A DNA stretch of 32,000 bases from Corynebacterium amycolatum (GTDB lineage: Bacteria > Actinomycetota > Actinomycetes > Mycobacteriales > Mycobacteriaceae): assembly GCF_049243625.1 (NCBI RefSeq), contig NZ_CP046975.1; one strand, written 5' to 3'. The notes beneath the pieces were generated by a model that had not been told where the DNA came from, did not search any database, and saw only the letters and a program-made list of their open reading frames with translations. Of this stretch, positions 5,192 to 26,698 are shown in pieces. Position numbers and translations under genes: made by a program. Numbering within the stretch: position 1 is the first letter of the stretch; each line of letters begins with the position of its first letter.

Positions 5192-5305
5192 GGGAGGGAA
5201 TGTTACCTGCCGCTTAGGGCTCCAAGCGAGTGCCGATGAAGTCTTCGAGGTTGAATTTTCTAGCGAGAGCCGAAATCTCCGGGAGTCCAGTCTCTCTGCT
5301 AACCG

Positions 5306-5581
5306 CTAGGGCTTCTTCTCATCGTTAATATTTTTCATACGAATGCTGCAAATAAATAGTGCAATGCAGCTAACGAGGAGAGCAACTAGAGAGATTTCAG
5401 AATAGAGCAATGCCCTGTCGGCCTTTGCGGTGACAGCGGTTGCGCTCATGTGAGCAGTTTGCTGAGCAAGCTGCCCCAGCGTATACATGCCATTTGCGAT
5501 ACCTAGTATGCAAATAATGCTTACCGCTATTCCTGCAACGGAAATGAACTGTAGTGACTTTAATTGTAAATGTGGTGACAT
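5306..5581 (-). CDS. Hypothetical small membrane protein (two hydrophobic helices) in a lower-GC islet
   Basis: 91-aa ORF with an ATG start preceded by GAGGTG. No family recognised. Confidence 0.5.
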   Translation of the reverse strand: MSPHLQLKSLQFISVAGIAVSIICILGIANGMYTLGQLAQQTAHMSATAVTAKADRALLYSEISLVALLVSCIALFICSIRMKNINDEKKP

Positions 5582-6020
5582 TGCTCACCTCGGAAAGATC
5601 CGCTTACGAAAAGGCGGGCGCACATCATTCCAGGTTGGATATCAACGTTTTTTAGCGGTGCAAGTCCGTTGTTCCCTGGTTGAGTAATGCGTCAGCGTTA
5701 TGTGGGCTTGCGGAGGCTGTTCCTGGATGCATTGCGCAAAGAGATGTGACGGTAGCGCTTGCAGCCAGAATTAATGATGTGAATTTACGATGGGTTATGT
5801 TTTTCCTTTTTGGTCATTATTGAGTGTCCTCAAATATGTTTGATCGGCTGGCATGGGAAAATTATAACAAAATAATTAATGCCCTATGGGGAGGTAATTG
5901 CGTTATTTTGGCAACCGTCTAATCTGGGGGTAGCCGATAGTCAATAAATAAGATTGTATGAATTTTAATTGGATGAAGGGATTGTCGCATTTCTTCTAGT
6001 CGGCTCGCTAATCTGTAATA

Positions 6021-9509: not shown

Positions 9510-9755
9510 TCAGCGGGCGAGGTGGAAGGTAGTAGCTTCCGGGAGGGGGAGGTGGGGGCTTCGTCGTAAAGCGTGCGGGAGATGGTAGACAAAGCTGTCT
9601 AGTTGGTGTTAGGGTGGGCGACACGATCACAAGATATCGACGAGAAATGGCCTTTGACAGCGTCGATAGGCAACCGCCCGATTCGCGGACCCGGTGCCCC
9701 AAAGGAAGATCAGCCCCACAGACCGCCTGCGGGGAAGAGCGAATAGGAGCGCCAA

Positions 9756-15581: not shown

Positions 15582-15929
15582 ATGAGTGAGTCTTGTTGTT
15601 CGTCTCAATCGCATTCGCTTGACGACGGTTCTTGCTGCCATGACACCACTGATCCCGGTTATCTTTCGGAGAAGCGGCGTTATGAGTCCCGTATTCGTCG
15701 CATTGAGGGGCAGGTTCGTGGCATTGGTCGGATGATTGAGAACGAAGAGTACTGTATCGATGTTTTGACCCAGATTTCGGCGGTGAATTCGGCGTTGAAG
15801 TCGTTGGCGTTGACTCTTCTGGATGCTCATCTTCATCACTGTGTGGTGCATGCGGCTGAGGGTGGCCAGGAGGAGTTGGATGCCAAGCTGGAGGAGGCCT
15901 CGGCGGCAATCGCTCGGCTGGCTAAGTAA
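15582..15929 (+). CDS. csoR: CsoR-family copper-sensing transcriptional repressor with a Cys-rich N-terminal extension
   Basis: DUF156/CsoR core (IRRIEGQVRGIGRMIENEEYCIDVLTQISAV...HLHHCV). Extra N-terminus MSESCCSSQSHSLDDGSCCHD. The start is 4 nt after the copA stop. Confidence 0.9.
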   Translation: MSESCCSSQSHSLDDGSCCHDTTDPGYLSEKRRYESRIRRIEGQVRGIGRMIENEEYCIDVLTQISAVNSALKSLALTLLDAHLHHCVVHAAEGGQEELDAKLEEASAAIARLAK

Positions 15930-16127: not shown

Positions 16128-16213
16128 GGAGGATTCGACTAGCGGCCTATGTCACACGCCTGGAACGCGTGCGGGAGTCACATCCCTCGTGGGTTCAAAT
16201 CCCACATCCTCCG
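16128..16213 (+). tRNA. tRNA-Ser (anticodon GGA)
   Basis: Manual cloverleaf: acceptor GGAGGAT/ATCCTCC, D stem GAC/GTC, anticodon stem CACGC/GCGTG with loop CTGGAAC, long variable arm (GGGA/TCCC), T arm GTGGG-TTCAAAT-CCCAC, discriminator G. CCA is not encoded. Confidence 0.9.
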
Positions 16214-16215
16214 CA
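16197..16215 (+). repeat. attL core (AAATCCCACATCCTCCGCA; T-loop to 3' end of tRNA-Ser)
   Basis: Exact 19-bp direct repeat of 22012-22030. Confidence 0.9.
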
Positions 16216-16328
16216 AATGGGAACCCTCAGGTAGAAAACTACCTGGGGGTTTTCCCGTATCCATGCTGGTAAGGCACCATAAAGCATACACAATAAGTAT
16301 TGACTCGTCTCAACTGATATCGTTTGAA

Positions 16329-16351
16329 CTGTCACGAAAAGCTGTCACGCG
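16329..16351 (+). repeat. 23-bp block CTGTCACGAAAAGCTGTCACGCG (two CTGTCACG octamers), putative recombinase arm-type sites
   Basis: An exact copy lies at 21933-21955 in the same orientation. The block is located between attL and the int start codon. Confidence 0.8.
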
Positions 16352-16386
16352 GCGGTGGGCACGCACGCGAAAGGTTTTCACCTTTA

Positions 16387-17526
16387 ATGGCACGCAGAAC
16401 AAAGGGGCTTACCCCCCTGCCGTCTGGAAACGTCCGGGCACGCTACCAACACAAAGGCCGGACTTACTACAAGACTTTTCCTAACATGGAGCAGGCGAGA
16501 GCCTGGCGAAGCAAAGAGCTAACATTAATCCACGATGATGTTTGGACTCCGCCGGCCGAAAGAGAAGGTAGAAAGAAGCGCACCGGGCTAACGGTCGCTG
16601 AGTATTTCGAGACCCTGCCAACGAAACGGAATTGGGAACCGACCACAGAACGCGGTTACAGGTCAATGTTCACCAACGACATTGCGCCGACTTTCGGAGA
16701 AATGCACCTAGCGGCGATTACACGCGCCGAAGTACGCAAATGGTATGACAGCATGGTCAAGGCCAATAAAGACCGTAAAAAGCGGAATAGGGACGTTTAT
16801 AGCCTGCTTAAAACGATCTTCTCCCAAGCGGTTGAAGATGAACTTGTCCAAGTCAGCCCCGTGAACATCCCAGGAGCGTCTACGCGACCGTCTGCCAAAA
16901 AAGAGCAGGAGATCCCCACGGCACAGGAGTTCGCCAAGCTAGTTGCCGCAGTCCCCGAACGGTATCGAGTCCCCACAATGGTCGCAGCCGTGTGCGCGCT
17001 ACGCATTGGCGAATGGGCGGAACTTCGCCGAAAAGACGTGCGTAGGGACTCGGCTACAGGGGTTATGAAAGTCCACGTATGCCGACAAGTCCGTGAAGCT
17101 AAAGGGAAAAGCGGAAAGGTTGTGGTGCCGTTTACGAAGACCAAACAGGATCGTTGGGTCACAGTACCCGCCGCAATCGTTCCTGCACTTGAACAGCACA
17201 TTGGCACCTATGCAGGGGCGGGGCGTGACGGTTTACTGTTCCCGAACAAAGAAGGGGACTGGGTAGACCGTCGCCGCTTTAATCGAATGCTCAAGGCCGC
17301 ATGTCACGAAGCGCTGGGACATGACAATATCCATAGCCACATTCTTCGGCACTATGGCGGTACTCAATTCGCTATGGCGGGCGGCACAATGGCTGAGACT
17401 ATGGCGAGGTTGGGGCACACAACTACGTCAGCGGCTTTGCGTTATCAGCACGCGGCCGAGGTGCGCGATGTTGAGGTCGCTAACCGCATGGTTATGCCGT
17501 TGGTTGCGGTGCCAGACGTAGCGTAA
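16387..17526 (+). CDS. int: Tyrosine-type site-specific integrase
   Basis: Catalytic pattern R (ALRIGEWAEL), HxxR (HILRHYGG) and Y (ALRYQH), with an N-terminal SAM-like domain. The start is set at ATG 16387 (MARRTKGL...). The track start at 16324 would run through the arm-type repeats. Confidence 0.9.
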   Translation: MARRTKGLTPLPSGNVRARYQHKGRTYYKTFPNMEQARAWRSKELTLIHDDVWTPPAEREGRKKRTGLTVAEYFETLPTKRNWEPTTERGYRSMFTNDIAPTFGEMHLAAITRAEVRKWYDSMVKANKDRKKRNRDVYSLLKTIFSQAVEDELVQVSPVNIPGASTRPSAKKEQEIPTAQEFAKLVAAVPERYRVPTMVAAVCALRIGEWAELRRKDVRRDSATGVMKVHVCRQVREAKGKSGKVVVPFTKTKQDRWVTVPAAIVPALEQHIGTYAGAGRDGLLFPNKEGDWVDRRRFNRMLKAACHEALGHDNIHSHILRHYGGTQFAMAGGTMAETMARLGHTTTSAALRYQHAAEVRDVEVANRMVMPLVAVPDVA

Positions 17527-17548
17527 GACGAGAAGTAAAAGGCCCACC

Positions 17549-17585
17549 CCCCGTTGTGATGTCTATCACACAACGGGGTTTTTCT
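17549..17585 (+). terminator. Intrinsic terminator after int
   Basis: CCCCGTTGTG (17549-17558) pairs with CACAACGGGG (17569-17578), followed by TTTTTCTT. Confidence 0.75.
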
Positions 17586-17670
17586 TACCCACTGGTTCGC
17601 AAGCGCATGCGAGTCTGGCCATGAATAAAACACACGTTCCCTTAGTTGTTTGGTGAGTGAAAACTAGTCC

Positions 17671-17710
17671 CTGTAGACCCCTGTAGGTCACTGTAGGCCA
17701 CTGTGTGCCA
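17671..17710 (+). repeat. Four head-to-tail 10-bp repeats CTGTAGACCC CTGTAGGTCA CTGTAGGCCA CTGTGTGCCA
   Basis: Read directly from the sequence. The period is exactly 10 bp, in the AT-rich int-xis intergenic region. The nearby palindrome CGCATAATATGCG is at 17731-17743. Confidence 0.85.
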
Positions 17711-18020
17711 TAAGATGAAACGCAAGAAAAACGCATAATATGCGATATGTTGCAATATATTACGTGTTGCAAAAACGAGACAGCTAATGATAAAGCGAGT
17801 CAAGAGAACCTGACACCAGCACAACCAGGCCAAACAAGATAATATATGTCGTATCCAAACAAGTCATTACCTTCGACACATCACTTCGATTCAGTGCGTG
17901 CCCACCACGTAAGGGGGTAGCGACCCGTTTGGATGATCACCCCACTTAGAGCCAGCTACAGCCACCAAAGCAATACAAGGAAGAGTGAGAACGAGTAGTT
18001 AAGAAAGAGAGAAAATCTAA

Positions 18021-18200
18021 GTGGAAACATCATCTAAATGGGTTAAAGTTTCCGAAATTGCGAACGAATACGGCCTAACTAAAACAACCGTCTACAACCT
18101 CGTTCGTGACGGAAAAATCGAAGCTAGCTACATCACGAAACGACAGCTCCGCATCAACCGCGACTCTATGCAAGCGCACGTCAAAGCAAACGCCGCATAA
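18021..18200 (+). CDS. xis: Excisionase-family helix-turn-helix DNA-binding protein (59 aa; not in the ORF track)
   Basis: The GTG start is preceded by a purine-rich stretch (AAGAAAGAGAGAAAA). The translation VETSSKWVKVSEIANEYGLTKTTVYNLVRDGKIEASYITKRQLRINRDSMQAHVKANAA has the MerR-like/excisionase HTH pattern. Confidence 0.75.
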   Translation: METSSKWVKVSEIANEYGLTKTTVYNLVRDGKIEASYITKRQLRINRDSMQAHVKANAA

Positions 18201-18234
18201 GACAACCGCAACCACACAGATACGGAGAACCATC

Positions 18235-18375
18235 GTGATCAATATCAAGAAAATCGCAACCAGCGCCGGATACAACACAACTACCGGCACCGATCTCAAA
18301 GCAGAACCGGACACAATCAACCTGCAAGCCCTCAGCGACGATCTACGCGCATACGAGGATCTAACCGGCGAATAG
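18235..18375 (+). CDS. Small hypothetical protein (46 aa), or the N-terminal part of a longer gene interrupted by TAG
   Basis: GTG 18235 has GGAG 8 nt upstream. The upstream part of track ORF 18106-18375 overlaps xis out of frame. The gene ends at TAG 18373-18375, in the same frame as the next open stretch. Confidence 0.4.
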   Translation: MINIKKIATSAGYNTTTGTDLKAEPDTINLQALSDDLRAYEDLTGE

Positions 18376-18936
18376 CCCGCTGACGAACTGATCGAGCAGC
18401 ACCTAACCGCCTATCAGTGGTGCCACACATGCAGCCACAAACCAGGCTCACCAGTTCGTAATGGCATCGCATGGCAAATCGGCCTAGACACCGGAACCTA
18501 CGGCAACACCACCGAACTGCTACTAAGCCGCCGCCACCGCCGGCAGCTCCCTAACGTCCCGAAAGTCCGCGATTGGGAACTATTCGGCGCCGACGAATAC
18601 CTAGCCCGGCGCCAATGCCGCGAAGAAAAGCGACGCAGCCAGGGCAACACTCAGCCGGGCGGGTTTTACGACTCATGGACACCACGCGACCAGCTCGAAC
18701 GTTTCGGGTTCGTAGAGCCTGTCACAAGCGAACTGCTAGGCGCCGTGACCACGCACGACACCGGTAACGCCGTGAATTTCTGGCAGCGTAGCGACACCCC
18801 GGCCGTGGTGTACGTACAGACCACGACACAGGAAAAGGAGGGCGTAGCAGTCCCCTTAGACGGGGAAGATCTGTACTGGCTCGCTGAGGTTATCACGGAG
18901 ATTCTGGCAGACCAGGGCGAGGGGGAGATTAGCTAG
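18376..18936 (+). CDS. Hypothetical protein with an unresolved start
   Basis: 187 codons are open directly after the TAG at 18373. No ATG, GTG or TTG occurs in frame until GTG 18745 (the track ORF 18745-18936). The upstream 123 codons still look coding (WCHTCSH..., RQCREEKRR...). Confidence 0.4.
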   Translation, partial: PADELIEQHLTAYQWCHTCSHKPGSPVRNGIAWQIGLDTGTYGNTTELLLSRRHRRQLPNVPKVRDWELFGADEYLARRQCREEKRRSQGNTQPGGFYDSWTPRDQLERFGFVEPVTSELLGAVTTHDTGNAVNFWQRSDTPAVVYVQTTTQEKEGVAVPLDGEDLYWLAEVITEILADQGEGEIS

Positions 18937-19523
18937 TGACCACAGCAAAAACCCCCGGTTGGGAAACCCGGGGGCTAAATAAAGAGCTAAAAGGTGCGCG
19001 TAGCAATTATAGCGTATCCCCGCCGGTAAAGCCTATGGTTTGGGAAACGTTAGCGGAAGAAGCCTTAGCGCTACTAGCGTCCTGCACTGCTGAAATGACC
19101 GTGTACGTAATCAATCAGCACAAACTTAACGCGCAGCATTTTCCCGCGCTCTACAAGCTGGCATACCTAGACATTTCCAAGCGCGCCCATGCCCTCGTAA
19201 AGAGCGGTAAACCGTTAGACCGTGTGGACATGGTGGAGGTCGGTCAATGGCTACAGGAACAGCAGGAACGCGCCGGAACGCAGGTGTGGCGACGTATCAC
19301 CGGCAATCAACTGTTTTCCCCAGCCGTGCCGTATGGAATGGCGGAAACAGCGCTAATCGACCGCGCCGTAAAGGAGTTGAAGCAGCAACACAAATTCCAG
19401 TCGATTAACAACGTTCGGGAATACCTTACCGACTACTTGAACACCGGAGATCTTAAATACGCGATGTTGGCCGGGAACCGGCTCGCAGAGACGCTCAAAG
19501 ACTGGAAAGAGGTGGCAGTATGA
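18936..19523 (+). CDS. Hypothetical protein (195 aa)
   Basis: The GTG start overlaps the previous stop (TAGTG), suggesting translational coupling. No family recognised. Confidence 0.6.
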   Translation: MTTAKTPGWETRGLNKELKGARSNYSVSPPVKPMVWETLAEEALALLASCTAEMTVYVINQHKLNAQHFPALYKLAYLDISKRAHALVKSGKPLDRVDMVEVGQWLQEQQERAGTQVWRRITGNQLFSPAVPYGMAETALIDRAVKELKQQHKFQSINNVREYLTDYLNTGDLKYAMLAGNRLAETLKDWKEVAV

Positions 19524-19553
19524 TAAGCCCTTTTGAAAAATATCTACATGTCA

Positions 19554-19640
19554 CTGAGATTAGAGATTGGGGTTATTTATACGCTTTGACCTGCTTTAAT
19601 ATGTCTCAATTCCGTATTGAGATTGGCTGAGATTGGGGGG
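19554..19640 (+). repeat. Four GAGATT(GG) repeats plus a TCTCAAT/ATTGAGA inverted repeat immediately upstream of the primase gene
   Basis: GAGATT at 19556, 19563, 19619 and 19629. The inverted repeat is 19604-19610 with 19616-19622. Confidence 0.75.
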
Positions 19641-19645
19641 TTGAA

Positions 19646-21175
19646 ATGCAAGAAAAACTGTATGTGTTCAGCTCGTCTACCAGTCTCGATAATGCCGATG
19701 TACTCTACCGGCAGGTTTTTAAGGTTGATGGGTACGCCACTCTGTTCCGCAAGGAGTGCGGGGATTATTACTTGTGGTCTGATGGGGTTTGGGCTGACTG
19801 TCGTCGCAGTCGCGCGGAATCAGTACTAGCCAACCGGCTTGTTAATGCCCGTGTCCGCGCGATTCGGCCACCCTTGACGGGCGGGGGCGCAGGGTCGGCG
19901 CTCGATGATCCGCAGGAGCGGGAAGAGCAGCAGTCCCTAGAGTGGTCGGCGTCTAAGGTAGTCGCACTCGTTGACGGCATGGGGCAGCTCCACCCGTATG
20001 AAGAGCAGGATCTGGAAACCTCGCAGCGCTATATTGGTATGGCTAATGGCATGTACGACGTGGACACGGGGGAACTGCTGGACTGGTCTCCTCGGTTTGG
20101 TAATGAGTGGCGACTTCCGTTCGACTACCAACCCGAAGCTACGTGCCCAACGTTCGATAGCTACCTGGACTCGATAACGGAGGGCCTGCCACAAACGAAG
20201 AGGTTCCTACTGCAGTGGCTCGGCTATCTCGTATCCGGGCGGACGGACCTGCAAAAGGGTGTGTACTTGATGGGTGCAACCCGCTCGGGTAAGTCAACGT
20301 TCGCAGATGTATGCGCGGCATTGGTTGGGGAATCTAACACGGCGGCACCACGCGGAGACGTGGGGCAGTTCTCTACAAAGCAGTGGGAGGGTAAAAGCCT
20401 GGTGGCGTTTTCCGATGTCCGCAGCGTCAACGACCCCCGCAAGCTCGCTGAGATCCTGTTGCAGGTTATTGGCAATGATCGGGTGACCGTGGAGGGTAAA
20501 GGCAAAGATGAACGCACCGTTCGGCTCCATTCGCGGGTGATGGTCTGCTCCAATACTGCAATCCCTATTTACGATATTGCCGGGGTTGCCCAAAACAGGT
20601 TCATTGGCGTGTACCTGCCTATCTCATTTAGGGGCAAAGAAGATAGCGACCTGGGGCGGCGTATCGCGGCGGAAATGCCCGGCATTTTTAACCGCGCCCT
20701 CGATGGGCTGGCAGACCTCGAAAAGCAAGGAACATTCACTGAACCGGAACAACATGGCTACGTCATGGACCAACTGCGGATTGCAGGGTCAGCCGTTTCA
20801 GAGTTCTACAGCGAAGCGCTGGAAGCTGCTGGCATTGAGCATGTGCTGAGTGTGCAAGACATTAGAACCGCACTCGACGCATACCTCACAAGGCAGGGAA
20901 TCACTAAGGTTCCACGGGAGGAAAAGACTCTCAACGGCATCGAAGGGCGCTGTGCCCAATTGGACTATGAAGTCTCCAAACCTAAAGACGATGACGGAAA
21001 GAGTTGGCGCTGTGTCTCGGGCGTGAAGTTCACAGCACAGTTCGCCACCTATCGCACGACCCACAGCGACAACGCGGAGCGTGCTCGAAACGCACAGGCG
21101 CGCAGGGGCGACAAACCCAACATGCAACCACGAGACGAAAAAGCCGGTCACCCCGCACAGCTACAGCTGAATTAG
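19646..21175 (+). CDS. Phage/plasmid primase-helicase (P4/D5 family, SF3 NTPase C-terminal domain)
   Basis: 509 aa. Walker A GATRSGKST. The surrounding region is typical of D5_N/P4-family primase C-terminal domains (FLLQWLGYLVSG..., VAFSDV, VMVCSNT). Confidence 0.82.
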   Translation: MQEKLYVFSSSTSLDNADVLYRQVFKVDGYATLFRKECGDYYLWSDGVWADCRRSRAESVLANRLVNARVRAIRPPLTGGGAGSALDDPQEREEQQSLEWSASKVVALVDGMGQLHPYEEQDLETSQRYIGMANGMYDVDTGELLDWSPRFGNEWRLPFDYQPEATCPTFDSYLDSITEGLPQTKRFLLQWLGYLVSGRTDLQKGVYLMGATRSGKSTFADVCAALVGESNTAAPRGDVGQFSTKQWEGKSLVAFSDVRSVNDPRKLAEILLQVIGNDRVTVEGKGKDERTVRLHSRVMVCSNTAIPIYDIAGVAQNRFIGVYLPISFRGKEDSDLGRRIAAEMPGIFNRALDGLADLEKQGTFTEPEQHGYVMDQLRIAGSAVSEFYSEALEAAGIEHVLSVQDIRTALDAYLTRQGITKVPREEKTLNGIEGRCAQLDYEVSKPKDDDGKSWRCVSGVKFTAQFATYRTTHSDNAERARNAQARRGDKPNMQPRDEKAGHPAQLQLN

Positions 21176-21273
21176 GGGTTTATCTCAGCAATCTTAGCGA
21201 ATCTCAACCACTGAATACGCTGCATTATTGCAGTTCAGAGACGGTATCTAGGGGCTTATCTTCCAATCTCAGT
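21173..21273. repeat. Reverse-orientation copies of the GAGATTGG repeat and a ~22-bp direct repeat just 3' of the primase gene (candidate replication origin)
   Basis: CCAATCTCAG (21263-21272) is the exact reverse complement of CTGAGATTGG (19627-19636). AATCTC occurs at 21200 and 21265. TAGGGGYTTATCT..CAATCT occurs at 21173 and 21249, flanking the palindrome CTGCATTATTGCAG. Confidence 0.55.
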
Positions 21274-21663
21274 GTTTTGCAAAATTCTCCACTGAAAAAC
21301 ACGACAACACCAGCCGGGGATAAGTCCTAACCCGTCCAACATTGATGAAACTGTCACGTGCCCAACTCGTTCCCGGGCGCACGCGCGCGCGGTATATAGT
21401 CCAGAAACAAAAGAGCGCTGTGGCTCGTTTTAAGCGCTTGGGGGCTACTTAGGTATGTGCGCTTATCGTTCAACGCTTTAGAAGTGATTTGTGAACAGGG
21501 GTTTTGCAGAGTTTTGGGCGGGGCACACCGTCTATCGCCTAGCGAGACGCTAGAGCCTACGCGCACCGGGCTAAACCACGGCAGGGGCGGGGTATAGGTG
21601 CACCGCGCGACAATTTCCCCTACGCCCCGGTATCAGCCCGGCGCGCCGGGCGGGTCTAGTGGG

Positions 21664-21888
21664 TTACTCAGCGTCCATGTGTTCCCGCATGGCTCGATTG
21701 AATACGTCGGCAATATCGGCGCCCGCGTTTCGGTCAATGCTGAGTATCTGGTCTGTGATGATCTCTAGGTGAGTATCGGTGATTGGTTCGCCCTCACCGG
21801 GACTTGGTACGCCTGGGAACATTGCGGCCATGAGAAGGCTGGATAGCCCCTCATAGATCCGTTCTGTGAGTGTTGGCTGAGTGTCCAT
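21664..21888 (-). CDS. Small acidic hypothetical protein (74 aa)
   Basis: The start is set at ATG 21888 (MDTQPTL...) with AAGGA upstream. The longer track ORF (to 21939) would overlap the CTGTCACG repeats. Confidence 0.5.
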   Translation of the reverse strand: MDTQPTLTERIYEGLSSLLMAAMFPGVPSPGEGEPITDTHLEIITDQILSIDRNAGADIADVFNRAMREHMDAE

Positions 21889-21916
21889 AGTTGGGTTGGT
21901 TTCCTTTGGCTTTAGG

Positions 21917-21955
21917 CTGTCACGGACTGAGACTGTCACGAAAAGCTGTCACGCG
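21917..21955 (+). repeat. Three CTGTCACG octamers near attR, including the 23-bp block 21933-21955
   Basis: CTGTCACG at 21917, 21933 and 21946, with one further copy at 21351. All are on the + strand. Confidence 0.8.
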
Positions 21956-22011
21956 ACATGGTAAGCGGGTGAATAAGTGCCCCTCACCAGCGGAGGAGCG
22001 AAAAAGTGGCG

Positions 22012-22030
22012 AAATCCCACATCCTCCGCA
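22012..22030 (+). repeat. attR core (duplicate of the tRNA-Ser 3' end)
   Basis: Exact 19-bp copy of 16197-16215. Confidence 0.9.
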
Positions 22031-22036
22031 GATTGA

Positions 22037-22064
22037 AAACCCCCGGTTATCGCCGGGGGTTTTC
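22037..22064 (+). terminator. Intrinsic terminator, probably the original tRNA-Ser terminator displaced by the insertion
   Basis: AAAACCCCCGG-ttatcg-CCGGGGGTTTT immediately after attR. Confidence 0.75.
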
Positions 22065-26527: not shown

Positions 26528-26586
26528 AACTGTTGGCCTGGCAGTGGTGTGACTTTTTGTACGTAGCTGTAGTAGGCTGTCTTCAC

Positions 26587-26672
26587 GGATCCCATGTGGC
26601 GTCCATCTCGTGAACTCCCCCAGGGCAGGAATGCAGCAAGGGTCAGCGAGCTCTGACGGGTGCGTGGGGTCC
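26587..26672 (+). ncRNA. ffs: Signal recognition particle RNA (small/4.5S type)
   Basis: Domain-IV-like core CAGG-GCA-GGAA-UGC-AGCA-AGGG (GGAA tetraloop, conserved AGCA). Nested helices CUCG.UGA/UCA.CGAG and CGUC/GACG. Closing helix GGAUCCCAUGUG/UGCGUGGGGUCC followed by a U-run. The exact ends are uncertain by a few nt. Confidence 0.78.
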
Positions 26673-26698
26673 CCTTTTTTTATCCCCGGCGTTCTTCT

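What the first reader, a model, noticed from the sequence alone, without database searches (positions are those of the whole stretch)
16197..22030. Compact 5.8-kb tRNA-Ser element with int, xis and primase-helicase but no structural or transfer genes: satellite-like or minimal replicative island
19-bp direct repeats (16197-16215 and 22012-22030) delimit the element. It encodes a tyrosine integrase, an excisionase-type HTH protein, three or four unknown small or medium ORFs, a P4/D5-family primase-helicase, about 490 bp of non-coding DNA, and one small acidic protein on the opposite strand. I could not recognise any capsid, terminase, FtsK/Tra-type transfer or relaxase gene. Integrase, excisionase and primase-replicase with repeat-flanked origin-like DNA is the core layout of phage-inducible chromosomal islands and other satellites, which are poorly described in Actinobacteria. 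Alternatively it is a decayed integrative element. The unknown ORFs (18235-19523 and 21664-21888) are candidates for helper-interference, regulatory or defence functions.
Basis: partly seen in the sequence, partly recalled or inferred. Interest (0 to 1): 0.65.

Follow-up and report, generated by a model that had tools for sequence, protein, structure and literature searches.

The report
Minimal mobile island in skin Corynebacterium
A 5.8-kb self-integrating, probably self-replicating DNA island sits in a serine tRNA gene of Corynebacterium amycolatum; it has no genes for its own transfer and is laid out like the smallest known phage satellites, but no helper phage has been found.

Summary
Exact 19-bp repeats at 16197-16215 and 22012-22030 bound a 5,815-bp insertion in the 3' end of tRNA-Ser(GGA). 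Seven other strain contexts carry the exact empty site.

Gene content:
- A tyrosine integrase.
- An HTH_17 excisionase/AlpA-type protein.
- An orphan two-gene cassette, ORF233 and ORF195.
- A D5_N+DUF5906 SF3 helicase.
- A 74-aa acidic protein on the reverse strand.

- The "primase-helicase" has no detectable primase domain.
- In this window ORF233 is broken by an in-frame TAG at 18373. A sister copy has CAG there.

Evidence that it is a live mobile element, not a fixed remnant:
- Flanks that are nearly identical occur both with and without it, in two lineages.
- Integrase and helicase are under strong purifying selection (dN/dS 0.06 and 0.08).
- Two alleles differ more from each other than their flanks do.
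- Relatives sit at tRNA-Ala, tRNA-Pro and tmRNA, with swapped modules and cargo at the right end (a type I restriction-modification system; phage-type regulators).
- One relative was assembled across an attP-type junction.

The layout matches three of the four markers of the published model for phage-inducible chromosomal minimalist islands (PICMI). Integration next to fis is not met. Helper dependence is inferred only. I rate it a new variant of a known kind, of moderate interest.

The parts
16128..16214 (+). tRNA-Ser(GGA), the integration target. The element's attL core reconstitutes its 3' end.
   Evidence: ARAGORN; Rfam tRNA at 47 bits.
16197..16215 (.). attL core (19 bp).
   Evidence: Exact direct repeat. 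A single copy is present in the empty sites L015-L021.
16329..16349 (+). Two CTGTCACG repeats 40-55 nt upstream of the int start codon. Putative arm-type integrase sites or an operator.
   Evidence: The motif occurs 7 times in the window against 1.48 expected; six copies are in the element. A 24-nt block is exactly repeated at 21932-21955. The function is inferred.
16387..17526 (+). Tyrosine integrase, 379 aa from the ATG. The open frame starts at TTG 16324.
   Evidence: PF00589 E=1.3e-17, PF14659, phrog_1 E=5e-50. dN/dS 0.06 against L001. The R, HxxR, H and Y motifs are visible in the translation.
17546..17586 (+). Stem-loop followed by a T-run after int; likely the int terminator.
   Evidence: Inverted repeat I3/I6; sequence. 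Inferred.
17667..17704 (.). 3.4 tandem 10-bp repeats (CTGTAGGCCA), followed by an A+T-rich stretch to about 17870. Candidate operator or iteron region upstream of the xis operon.
   Evidence: TRF score 47-55; the repeat finder D1. Function unknown.
17923..18043 (+). 28-nt inverted repeat whose 3' arm covers the xis start codon. As RNA it is a stable long hairpin. Candidate translational control element or operator for the xis-ORF233-ORF195-helicase operon.
   Evidence: I1. RNA fold -37.5 kcal/mol, z = -4.57, 0 of 200 shuffles fold as well. The L001 change at 17927 (G to A) turns a G-U pair into A-U. Function inferred.
18021..18200 (+). 59-aa HTH_17 / excisionase-family protein (Xis/AlpA-type).
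   Evidence: PF12728 E=1.1e-9, TIGR01764 at 31.4 bits (cut-off 28.8), phrog_66.
18235..18936 (+). ORF233, an orphan gene. In this window it is a pseudogene or truncated gene because of an in-frame TAG at 18373-18375. It is intact (CAG) in L001, L006 and L011.
   Evidence: Translation; T against C at 18373. The TAG is present in all 10 contigs identical to the window. Only one distant relative (P0024, 47% identity over residues 4-142) among 1.84 billion representatives. dN/dS 0.15 between the intact copies.
18936..19523 (+). ORF195, an orphan gene predicted to be all-helical. Its start overlaps the ORF233 stop by 1 nt.
   Evidence: No family or PDB hit. AlphaFold2 pLDDT 56, five helices. A 41%-identical homologue sits at the same position in L096. 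dN/dS 0.57-0.76.
19520..19630 (+). Possible 36-aa ORF whose ATG overlaps the ORF195 stop (ATGA). The region also holds three GAGATTGG repeats just upstream of the helicase start.
   Evidence: Sequence. Called as a gene in L010, L108, L110 and L112. Motif count 4 against 1.1 expected, weak. Uncertain.
19646..21175 (+). 509-aa SF3 initiator-helicase of the D5/P4 family (D5_N + DUF5906 P-loop + C-terminal domain). No primase domain.
   Evidence: PF08706, PF19263, TIGR01613. Walker A, Walker B and motif C residues are invariant in alignment A2. The only PDB sequence match is 7OLA, PriRep5 of SaPI5. dN/dS 0.08.
21173..21344 (.). Two imperfect repeat units of about 76 bp (TAGGGGyTTATCT..CCACTGAA), small inverted repeats and one GTCCTAA, immediately downstream of the helicase gene. 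Candidate replication origin.
   Evidence: Repeats D5, D17, D19, I5, I10. The sister element has 7 GTCCTAA iterons at the same position. SaPI origins lie immediately downstream of rep (PMC9371898). Inferred.
21345..21587 (.). 243-bp conserved non-coding module ("D"). Sister element L006 keeps it at 92.6% identity even though its integrase and helicase are different. Candidate cis site (packaging, transfer or replication); function unknown.
   Evidence: blastn; alignment A3. No significant RNA structure on either strand (z -0.35 and +1.13). No Rfam hit.
21664..21888 (-). ORF74, a small acidic protein in the cargo position between the helicase and attR.
   Evidence: Called as a gene in all annotated copies. 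No family hit. dN/dS 0.23. A degenerate homologue is present at the right end of L096.
21917..21953 (+). Three CTGTCACG repeats between the ORF74 start and attR. In a circular form they would lie across the core from the two copies upstream of int.
   Evidence: The analogous 2+2 TAAGGGAA repeats flank the core in the L096 attP-type contig.
22012..22030 (.). attR core (19 bp). The native tRNA terminator hairpin follows at 22035-22064, outside the element.

Best explanation
This is a minimalist integrative island of Corynebacterium amycolatum that has been mobile recently and probably replicates on its own.

Proposed mechanism:
- The tyrosine integrase recombines a 19-bp core with the 3' end of tRNA-Ser(GGA). 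The CTGTCACG repeats on both sides of the core are probably its arm sites.
- The HTH_17 protein acts as excisionase and switch.
- After excision, the SF3 D5/P4-type helicase acts as a self-loading initiator-helicase on the repeat-rich DNA immediately downstream of its gene. Priming comes from the host or a helper.
- The element has no packaging or transfer genes, so it must hitch a ride. The most likely helper is a phage, as for PICMI-type minimal satellites.
- The slot between the helicase and attR is a cargo site. It holds ORF74 here, and a type I restriction-modification system or phage-type regulators in relatives.

Shown: the exact boundaries, presence/absence polymorphism, intact and selected int and helicase, the modular family, and an attP-type junction in a sister element.

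Inferred: the roles of Xis, the arm sites and the origin, and any helper dependence.

The window's own copy has a broken ORF233 and may be partly defective.
For: 1. Precise insertion, and an exact attB in seven other contexts.
2. Recent gain or loss in two lineages. Occupied L012/L013 differ from empty L020/L021 by 0.01-0.04% in the flanks. Occupied L014 has a right flank identical to empty L018/L019.
3. The two alleles (window and L001) differ at dS 0.10-0.23 in int and the helicase, against 0.012 in the left flank gene. This argues for separate acquisitions.
4. dN/dS is 0.06 for int and 0.08 for the helicase.
5. Family architecture is conserved at four att sites, and none of the members seen has a structural or transfer gene:
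- the window element at tRNA-Ser, 5.8 kb;
- L100-102 at tRNA-Ala, 14,386 bp, with an IS-like gene and a type I restriction-modification system as cargo;
- L091 at tRNA-Pro, about 9 kb, with repressor-like, phrog_5536 and Ant-fragment genes;
- L006, L011 and L096 at the tmRNA 3' end.
6. Modular exchange. L006 shares only the ORF233-ORF195 cassette (95%) and the 243-bp D module (93%) with the window. Its integrase is different and its helicase is DUF3987-like.
7. Contig L096 reads right end, core, left end. This is an attP-type junction: arm repeats lie on both sides of the core and there is no tmRNA body upstream.
8. The marker set int + PF12728 + PF19263/PF13148 equals the PICMI model. PICMI115 is 6,110 bp with 17-bp direct repeats, six genes, and a defence hotspot after prim (PMC10803314).
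9. The only PDB relative of the helicase is SaPI5 PriRep5, a self-loading satellite initiator whose origin lies just downstream of rep.
Against: - No attP or attB heterogeneity was found for this element itself.
- Exact-pattern scans for its right end and for the D module found nothing in IMG/VR or JGI metagenomes.
- All 19 contigs read that carry ORF74 show the integrated form.
- There is no similarity to any deposited phage and no cos or pac site was identified.
- No repressor gene was recognised.
- No primase was detected, although more distant helicase relatives have a separate Prim-Pol gene just upstream.
- ORF233 is truncated in the window lineage.
- ORF233 and ORF195 could not be modelled (pLDDT 40 and 56), so a hidden function cannot be excluded.
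- Presence/absence could arise from loss by excision alone, without intercellular transfer.
- The L096 junction could come from a tandem insertion rather than a circle.
Confidence: 0.55

Rival explanations
1. Rival 1: conjugatively mobilised island. A conjugative plasmid, ICE or actinomycete FtsK/TraB-type system in the same cell moves the excised circle by recognising a cis site (an oriT- or clt-like sequence), for example the conserved 243-bp D module or the 10-bp tandem repeats.
For: There are no packaging genes. A conserved non-coding module is kept across elements that have different integrases and helicases. Tandem short repeats are present. Many islands without a relaxase are thought to be mobilised in trans (review PMC11389934, listed but not read in detail).
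Against: No relaxase, coupling protein or FtsK domain was found in this element or in its close relatives L091, L100 and L006. No plasmid DNA similarity. The cargo of relatives is phage-type: repressor-like, Ant, phrog_5536. The marker combination HTH_17 + DUF5906/DUF3987 is the one used to define satellites.
Confidence: 0.17
2. Rival 2: decaying or domesticated remnant. The island can perhaps still excise but is no longer transmitted between cells. Its distribution reflects one old insertion followed by losses and by homologous recombination of the flanks.
For: Nonsense codon in ORF233 in the window lineage. No transfer functions. No excised form of this element was seen. dN/dS is relaxed for ORF195 (0.57-0.76).
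Against: Strong purifying selection on int and the helicase. The alleles are more diverged than the flanks. Occupied and empty sites occur in backgrounds that are nearly identical, in two clades. The ORF233-ORF195 cassette is 95% identical in an element at a different att site with a different integrase and helicase, which requires recent exchange between elements. A sister element was caught as an attP-type junction.
Confidence: 0.13
3. Rival 3: integrative episome with no dedicated helper. After excision it is maintained as a small plasmid-like circle, and it spreads by non-specific routes such as generalised transduction, vesicles or uptake of DNA.
For: A self-contained integration and replication module. 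No recognisable hijacking genes. Relatives carry defence cargo, which could by itself favour retention.
Against: No partition or copy-control genes. No matching record among 72,556 plasmids. All assemblies of this element show it integrated.
Confidence: 0.1

Closest known systems
PICMI (phage-inducible chromosomal minimalist islands, Vibrionaceae; PMC10803314)
   Same: - About 6 kb with short direct repeats: 6,110 bp and 17 bp in PICMI115, 5,815 bp and 19 bp here.
- The same gene order: int, (int-overlapping gene), AlpA/HTH_17, a variable unknown gene or genes, a DUF5906 or DUF3987 "primase", then accessory or defence cargo before the far att site.
- No capsid or packaging genes.
- Relatives carry a type I restriction-modification system in the same hotspot.
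- The sister element L006 even has an ORF that overlaps the integrase gene by 17 nt.
   Different: - The host is an actinobacterium.
- Integration is into tRNA or tmRNA genes, not next to fis, and the fis marker is mandatory in the PICMI model.
- The window copy has no int-overlapping gene.
- The genes between xis and the helicase are unrelated orphans.
- No helper, induction or concatemer packaging has been shown.
- Sequence-level relatedness to PICMI proteins was not tested because no PICMI sequences were available here.
SaPI/PICI replication module (Pri, Rep, ori; PriRep5 of SaPI5, PDB 7OLA; PMC9371898)
   Same: An SF3 initiator-helicase with a C-terminal domain, and repeat-rich DNA immediately downstream of its gene. 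It is the only sequence match in the PDB (E=2e-4, residues 127-330). The int, xis and replication genes come in the same order.
   Different: No Stl-type master repressor, no terS/ppi/cpm packaging module, no primase gene or domain, and about one third of the size. In de Sousa et al. 2023 (PMC10085698) such int + AlpA + primase sets are the ambiguous "type C" class.
P4-like satellites
   Same: Integrase, an AlpA-like HTH protein, the helicase part of the alpha protein family (TIGR01613, "P4 family"), and a defence-cargo hotspot.
   Different: No psu, delta, sid or epsilon genes, no cos site recognised, no primase domain, and half the size.
Actinomycete integrative and conjugative elements (AICEs, pSAM2 type; from my own knowledge of the family)
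   Same: An actinobacterial host, tRNA integration, and int-xis followed by a replication gene.
   Different: No FtsK/SpoIIIE-type Tra protein, no RepSA or Prim-Pol replication protein, no Nudix or spread genes. The element is 5.8 kb, against the usual 9-24 kb.
EPIPs of Mycolicibacterium (PMC12822802) and the Streptomyces satellites (MiniFlayer, PMC10690885)
   Same: Satellites reported from Actinobacteria, with small genomes.
   Different: EPIPs are 11 kb, use a serine integrase and encode terS, head and tape-measure proteins. None of these features is present here.

Membership tests
PICMI (SatelliteFinder model in PMC10803314) | Integrase (PF00589, PF00239 or PF07508) | tested here: met
   PF00589 E=1.3e-17.
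PICMI | AlpA-type regulator (PF05930 or PF12728) | tested here: met
   PF12728 E=1.1e-9 at 38.9 bits, cut-off 27.
PICMI | "Primase" carrying DUF5906 (PF19263) or DUF3987 (PF13148) | tested here: met
   PF19263 E=1.1e-16 at 62 bits, cut-off 27.6. The sister element L006 has a weak DUF3987 hit at 26.6 bits, cut-off 27.
PICMI | Integration adjacent to fis (PF02954), a mandatory marker | tested here: not met
   The insertion is in tRNA-Ser(GGA), between a CsoR-like gene and an ABC-transporter binding-protein gene.
PICMI | Induced by a helper phage and packaged as concatemers in helper capsids | not testable with these tools
   Only negative database scans are available.
PICI / SaPI | Packaging or capsid-redirection module (terS, ppi, cpm) and a master repressor | tested here: not met
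   No such family hit in Pfam or PHROGs for any ORF, and no coding space is left for these genes.
PICI / SaPI | rep gene with an iteron origin immediately downstream | tested here: inconclusive
   Two imperfect repeat units of about 76 bp lie after the helicase gene. Clear 7-copy iterons are seen only in the sister element. No functional test was possible.
P4-like satellites | Seven core components: int, alpA, alpha, psu, delta, sid, epsilon (PMC10085698) | tested here: not met
   Only int, an HTH_17 protein and the helicase part of an alpha-like protein were detected.
P4-family primase-helicase (bifunctional) | A primase catalytic domain (Prim-Pol or Toprim) fused to the SF3 helicase | tested here: not met
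   Hits cover only D5_N and the P-loop domain, and only the C-terminal half of primase PHROG profiles. TIGR01613, the C-terminal domain model, is just met at 110.9 against 108.7 bits. Distant relatives have a separate Prim-Pol gene; this element does not.
AICE (pSAM2-like) | FtsK/SpoIIIE-domain DNA translocase (Tra) | tested here: not met
   No PF01580 hit. The only P-loop protein is the SF3 helicase.
ICE / IME | Relaxase and/or type IV secretion genes | tested here: not met
   No hit. A cis-acting oriT cannot be excluded.
Prophage or prophage remnant | Any capsid, portal, terminase, tail or lysis gene | tested here: not met
   PHROGs returned only integration/excision and replication categories. 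There is no phage DNA match.
Site-specific integrative element (general) | Direct repeats that equal attB, an empty site in relatives, and an intact recombinase | tested here: met

The most novel reading that the evidence does not exclude
This could be the first recognisable family of minimalist phage satellites in Corynebacterium, a human-skin actinobacterium. On this reading, the orphan ORF233-ORF195 cassette together with the conserved 243-bp non-coding D module forms a portable helper-exploitation or packaging module. That module moves between islands that use different integrases, att sites and initiator-helicases.
Probability: 0.25. Interest if true: 0.7.

Novelty: new variant of a known kind. 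Interest (0 to 1): 0.45.

Why it matters
Phage satellites and other helper-dependent "hitcher" elements are barely described in Actinobacteria, and not at all in skin corynebacteria. This family gives a concrete, very small test system (5.8 kb).
- Occupied and empty strains that are near-isogenic around the site exist naturally.
- An intact allele and a nonsense allele of ORF233 are both available.
- Relatives carry defence cargo.

If a helper exists, finding it would reveal how a six-gene island gets packaged or transferred in a Gram-positive, high-GC host. It would also show what the orphan cassette and the conserved non-coding module do. If no helper exists, the family is still a clean example of modular exchange among tRNA/tmRNA-targeting islets that shape strain-level variation in the skin microbiome, including restriction-modification content.

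Tried and rejected
- Function of ORF233 and ORF195:
  - Pfam, PHROGs, NCBIfam and PADLOC gave nothing.
  - Profile searches of the PDB gave nothing.
  - tblastn against 50,697 phage records gave nothing.
  - IMG/VR scans with alignments gave nothing.
  - The word-indexed protein search found only near-identical copies.
  - A full HMMER scan of 1.84 billion representatives with ORF233 found one partial relative and its own fragment.
  - AlphaFold2 models were poor (pLDDT 40 and 56). A Foldseek search of the ORF195 model against the PDB gave no match with E<=0.001, so it is disregarded.
- ORF195 against the 191-aa protein in the same position in L002, and ORF233 against the 121-aa protein there: no detectable similarity.
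- Excised form of this element. Exact-pattern scans for the right end plus core returned 0 hits in IMG/VR and 0 in JGI metagenomes. Every context of the exact ORF74 protein is integrated. Two Logan contigs end near the attL core (L010, L110), but L110 runs through attR unbroken, so I do not count this as evidence of excision.
- D module. It is not a structured RNA by folding z-score and has no Rfam family. It was not found in IMG/VR or JGI metagenomes by an exact 37-mer.
- Whole-element blastn against phages and plasmids gave no match.
- Small (5-7 kb) IMG/VR contigs with related helicases have no terminal repeats and no integrase or Xis homologues. They look like phage fragments, not minimal satellites.
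- The genome-contig scan returned only distant relatives (22-40% identity), mostly in Streptomyces, Micromonospora and metagenome-assembled genomes. I did not annotate them further.
- My first dN/dS value for ORF233 used a start coordinate one base off.

Full report
**1. The observation**

ARAGORN finds a single tRNA in the window, tRNA-Ser(GGA) at 16128-16214. The 19-bp sequence AAATCCCACATCCTCCGCA is repeated exactly at 16197-16215 and 22012-22030. By my own arithmetic, about 0.002 such pairs are expected by chance in 32 kb.

I looked up the exact protein of the gene just upstream (a CsoR-like repressor, 15582-15929). This returned ten distinct genomic contexts:
- Three are occupied: L012, L013 and L014.
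- Seven run straight from the tRNA into the ABC-transporter operon: L015-L021.

In all seven, the junction is exactly left flank + one core + right flank. The element is therefore a 5,815-bp insertion with exact ends. GC is 0.49-0.57 inside it, against about 0.58-0.66 outside.

**2. Gene content**

| Coordinates | Feature | Evidence |
|---|---|---|
| 16387-17526 | Tyrosine integrase | PF00589 E=1.3e-17; phrog_1 E=5e-50 |
| 18021-18200 | 59-aa HTH_17 / excisionase-family protein | PF12728; TIGR01764 |
| 19646-21175 | 509-aa D5_N + DUF5906 protein | TIGR01613 at 110.9 bits, cut-off 108.7 |
| 21664-21888, minus strand | 74-aa acidic protein (ORF74) | called as a gene in all annotated copies |

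The helicase matches only the C-terminal, helicase half of phage primase-helicase profiles. In tblastn against phages it covers at most 72% of the query at under 35% identity. No Prim-Pol or Toprim domain is found. More distant relatives of this helicase have a separate Prim-Pol gene immediately upstream (L092 and L094). This element and its closer relatives do not. So "primase-helicase" should read "SF3 initiator-helicase of the P4/D5 family".

Its only sequence match in the PDB is 7OLA. That entry is PriRep5 of the satellite SaPI5, a self-loading initiator-helicase. Its C-terminal domain recognises an iteron origin that lies immediately downstream of the gene (PMC9371898).

**3. The unknown ORFs**

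The stretch 18235-18936 is one reading frame of 233 codons, interrupted in the window by TAG at 18373-18375. The 96%-related copy in C. amycolatum GCA_030232325.1 (L001) has CAG there and an intact 233-aa gene. All ten contigs that are essentially identical to the window (99.9-100%), including three complete genomes, carry the TAG. It is therefore a real allele of one clonal lineage and not a sequencing error.

ORF195 (18936-19523) overlaps the ORF233 stop codon by one base. A possible 36-aa ORF overlaps the ORF195 stop codon.

ORF233, ORF195 and ORF74 have no hit in Pfam, PHROGs, NCBIfam or PADLOC. Phage-record and IMG/VR searches and PDB profile searches, run for ORF233 and ORF195 only, also found nothing. 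A full HMMER scan of 1.84 billion representatives with ORF233 found a single partial relative. AlphaFold2 models were too poor to use.

Between the intact copies, ORF233 has dN/dS 0.15. ORF195 evolves fast, at 0.57-0.76. The counts behind these ratios are small.

**4. Non-coding features**

- The motif CTGTCACG occurs seven times in the window against 1.5 expected. Six copies are in the element: two just upstream of int, three between ORF74 and attR, and one at 21351. In a circular form, the 3+2 copies would flank the core. This is the layout expected for arm-type integrase sites, or for a shared operator.
- The int-xis spacer holds 3.4 tandem 10-bp repeats.
- The same spacer holds a 28-nt inverted repeat whose distal arm covers the xis start codon. 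As RNA it folds far better than shuffled controls (z = -4.57).
- Downstream of the helicase gene lie two imperfect repeat units of about 76 bp.
- After those comes a 243-bp module, D (21345-21587). It shows no significant RNA structure and has no Rfam match.

**5. Is it alive?**

Several observations argue that it is.
- dN/dS is 0.06 for int and 0.08 for the helicase between the window and L001.
- The two alleles differ by dS 0.10-0.23 in these genes, whereas the adjacent chromosomal gene differs by 0.012.
- Flank comparison shows that occupied L012/L013 are 0.01-0.04% from empty L020/L021. Occupied L014 has a right flank identical to empty L018/L019. So there were recent gain or loss events in two lineages, involving two alleles.

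No structural or transfer gene was found, and the element is neither inactivated in int or the helicase nor fixed.

**6. The family**

| Locus | att site | Size | Gene order and cargo |
|---|---|---|---|
| L100-102 (helicase 54% identical) | tRNA-Ala, 19-bp repeats | 14,386 bp | int, 116 aa, HTH_17, 121 aa, 191 aa, 32 aa, helicase; then an IS1595-like gene and a complete type I restriction-modification system before attR |
| L091 (helicase 42% identical) | tRNA-Pro | about 9 kb | int, HTH_17, 106 aa, helicase; then phage-type repressor-like genes, phrog_5536 and an Ant fragment |
| L006 / L011 | 3' end of the tmRNA gene (read from the sequence; ARAGORN did not call the truncated gene) | contigs of about 5.3-5.5 kb | a different 434-aa integrase, a 152-aa ORF overlapping it by 17 nt, HTH_17, ORF233 and ORF195, a DUF3987-like helicase followed by seven GTCCTAA iterons |
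| L096 | tmRNA-type core | 4,993-bp contig | a more diverged version of the L006 type |

L006 shares with the window only two segments: the ORF233-ORF195 cassette (95% identical) and module D (93%).

Contig L096 reads as follows: the element's right end (the same GCCCGGCGCGCCGGGCGGG palindrome, a degenerate ORF74-like ORF and two arm repeats), then the core, then two arm repeats, then int. There is no tmRNA body upstream. This is an attP-type junction, from either a circle or concatemer or a tandem insertion.

None of these elements has a capsid, terminase, FtsK or relaxase gene.

**7. Comparison with known systems**

The PICMI paper (PMC10803314) describes a 6,110-bp island with 17-bp repeats and six genes: int, iolg, alpA, up1, prim and up2. 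Its detection model requires an integrase, AlpA (PF05930 or PF12728), a "primase" carrying DUF5906 or DUF3987, and fis. In that family the slot between alpA and prim holds variable unknown genes, and deleting up1 did not reduce transfer. The region after prim is a defence hotspot that can hold type I restriction-modification systems.

The window element meets three of the four markers and matches the layout, including the cargo position. It fails the fis criterion. I therefore say it works like a PICMI, but I do not file it as a member.

De Sousa et al. (PMC10085698) note that sets of int + AlpA + primase ("type C") are numerous and ambiguous.

Membership of the P4-like, PICI/SaPI, AICE, ICE/IME and prophage-remnant classes fails on defining genes; the membership table gives the details. 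The satellites reported from Actinobacteria are different kinds of element: EPIPs (PMC12822802) and the Streptomyces satellite-helper systems (PMC10690885, listed). No paper on this element was found.

**8. What remains unproven**

- There is no evidence for a helper, for induction or for packaging.
- No excised form of this particular element was found.
- No phage shares DNA with it.
- The origin and the arm sites are inferred from position and repetition only.
- The window's copy may be partly defective because ORF233 is truncated. By analogy with up1 in PICMI, that slot may be dispensable for transfer.

**9. Verdict**

| Claim | Probability |
|---|---|
| Real, precisely bounded integrative island that has been mobile recently | about 0.9 |
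| Replicates autonomously after excision | about 0.6 |
| Depends on a helper for transfer | about 0.7 |
| The helper is a phage | about 0.35-0.4 |

It is a new variant of a known kind, of moderate interest.

Noticed in passing
window 18373-18375: An in-frame TAG splits the 233-codon ORF. The sister allele (L001, L006, L011) has CAG. Every contig identical to the window carries the TAG, including three complete genomes, so one widely sequenced clonal lineage holds a nonsense allele.
   Followed up: yes
window 21345-21587: A 243-bp non-coding module is conserved at about 93% in a sister element that has a different integrase, att site and helicase. It is not a structured RNA by z-score and has no Rfam family. 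Its function is unknown; it could be a pac, oriT or ori accessory site.
   Followed up: partly
window 17923-18043: A 28-nt inverted repeat encloses the xis ribosome-binding region and start codon. The RNA hairpin is -37.5 kcal/mol with z = -4.57. The one substitution in L001 (17927, G to A) keeps the pairing.
   Followed up: partly
L096 1-480 (Logan SRR23704139_39016): This contig of a sister element reads right end, core, left end, with TAAGGGAA arm repeats on both sides of the core and no tmRNA body. It is an attP-type junction from a circle, a concatemer or a tandem insertion.
   Followed up: partly
L100 4710-19114 (also L101, L102): A 14.4-kb relative at tRNA-Ala, bounded by 19-bp repeats, carries an IS1595-like gene and a complete type I restriction-modification system (HsdM, HsdS, a 125-aa ORF, HsdR) between the helicase and attR.
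   Followed up: partly
L091 6574-15559: A relative of about 9 kb at tRNA-Pro(CGG) carries phage-type repressor-like HTH genes, a phrog_5536 protein and a 57-aa Ant (anti-repressor) fragment downstream of the helicase.
   Followed up: partly
L006 4981-5150; L011 5147-5251: Seven GTCCTAA iterons, some inverted, lie directly after the DUF3987-like helicase gene of the sister element. The window keeps a single copy at 21324-21330.
   Followed up: partly
window 19520-19645: A possible 36-aa ORF has an ATGA overlap with the ORF195 stop codon. Three GAGATTGG repeats lie just upstream of the helicase start codon.
   Followed up: no
L021 (CP008913.1) and L020 against L012, L013, L105: Complete genomes of about 2.472 Mb (empty site) and about 2.475 Mb (occupied) differ by about one SNP in 9.6 kb of left flank. 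They may be near-isogenic strains that differ by this island.
   Followed up: partly
window 5300-6000: A low-GC patch (0.48) with no ORF of 110 aa or more, upstream of a tRNA-synthetase gene. It was not examined.
   Followed up: no
window 9625-9745 and 26584-26678: A SAM-IV riboswitch (48 bits) and the small SRP RNA (65 bits). Both are ordinary chromosomal features.
   Followed up: no
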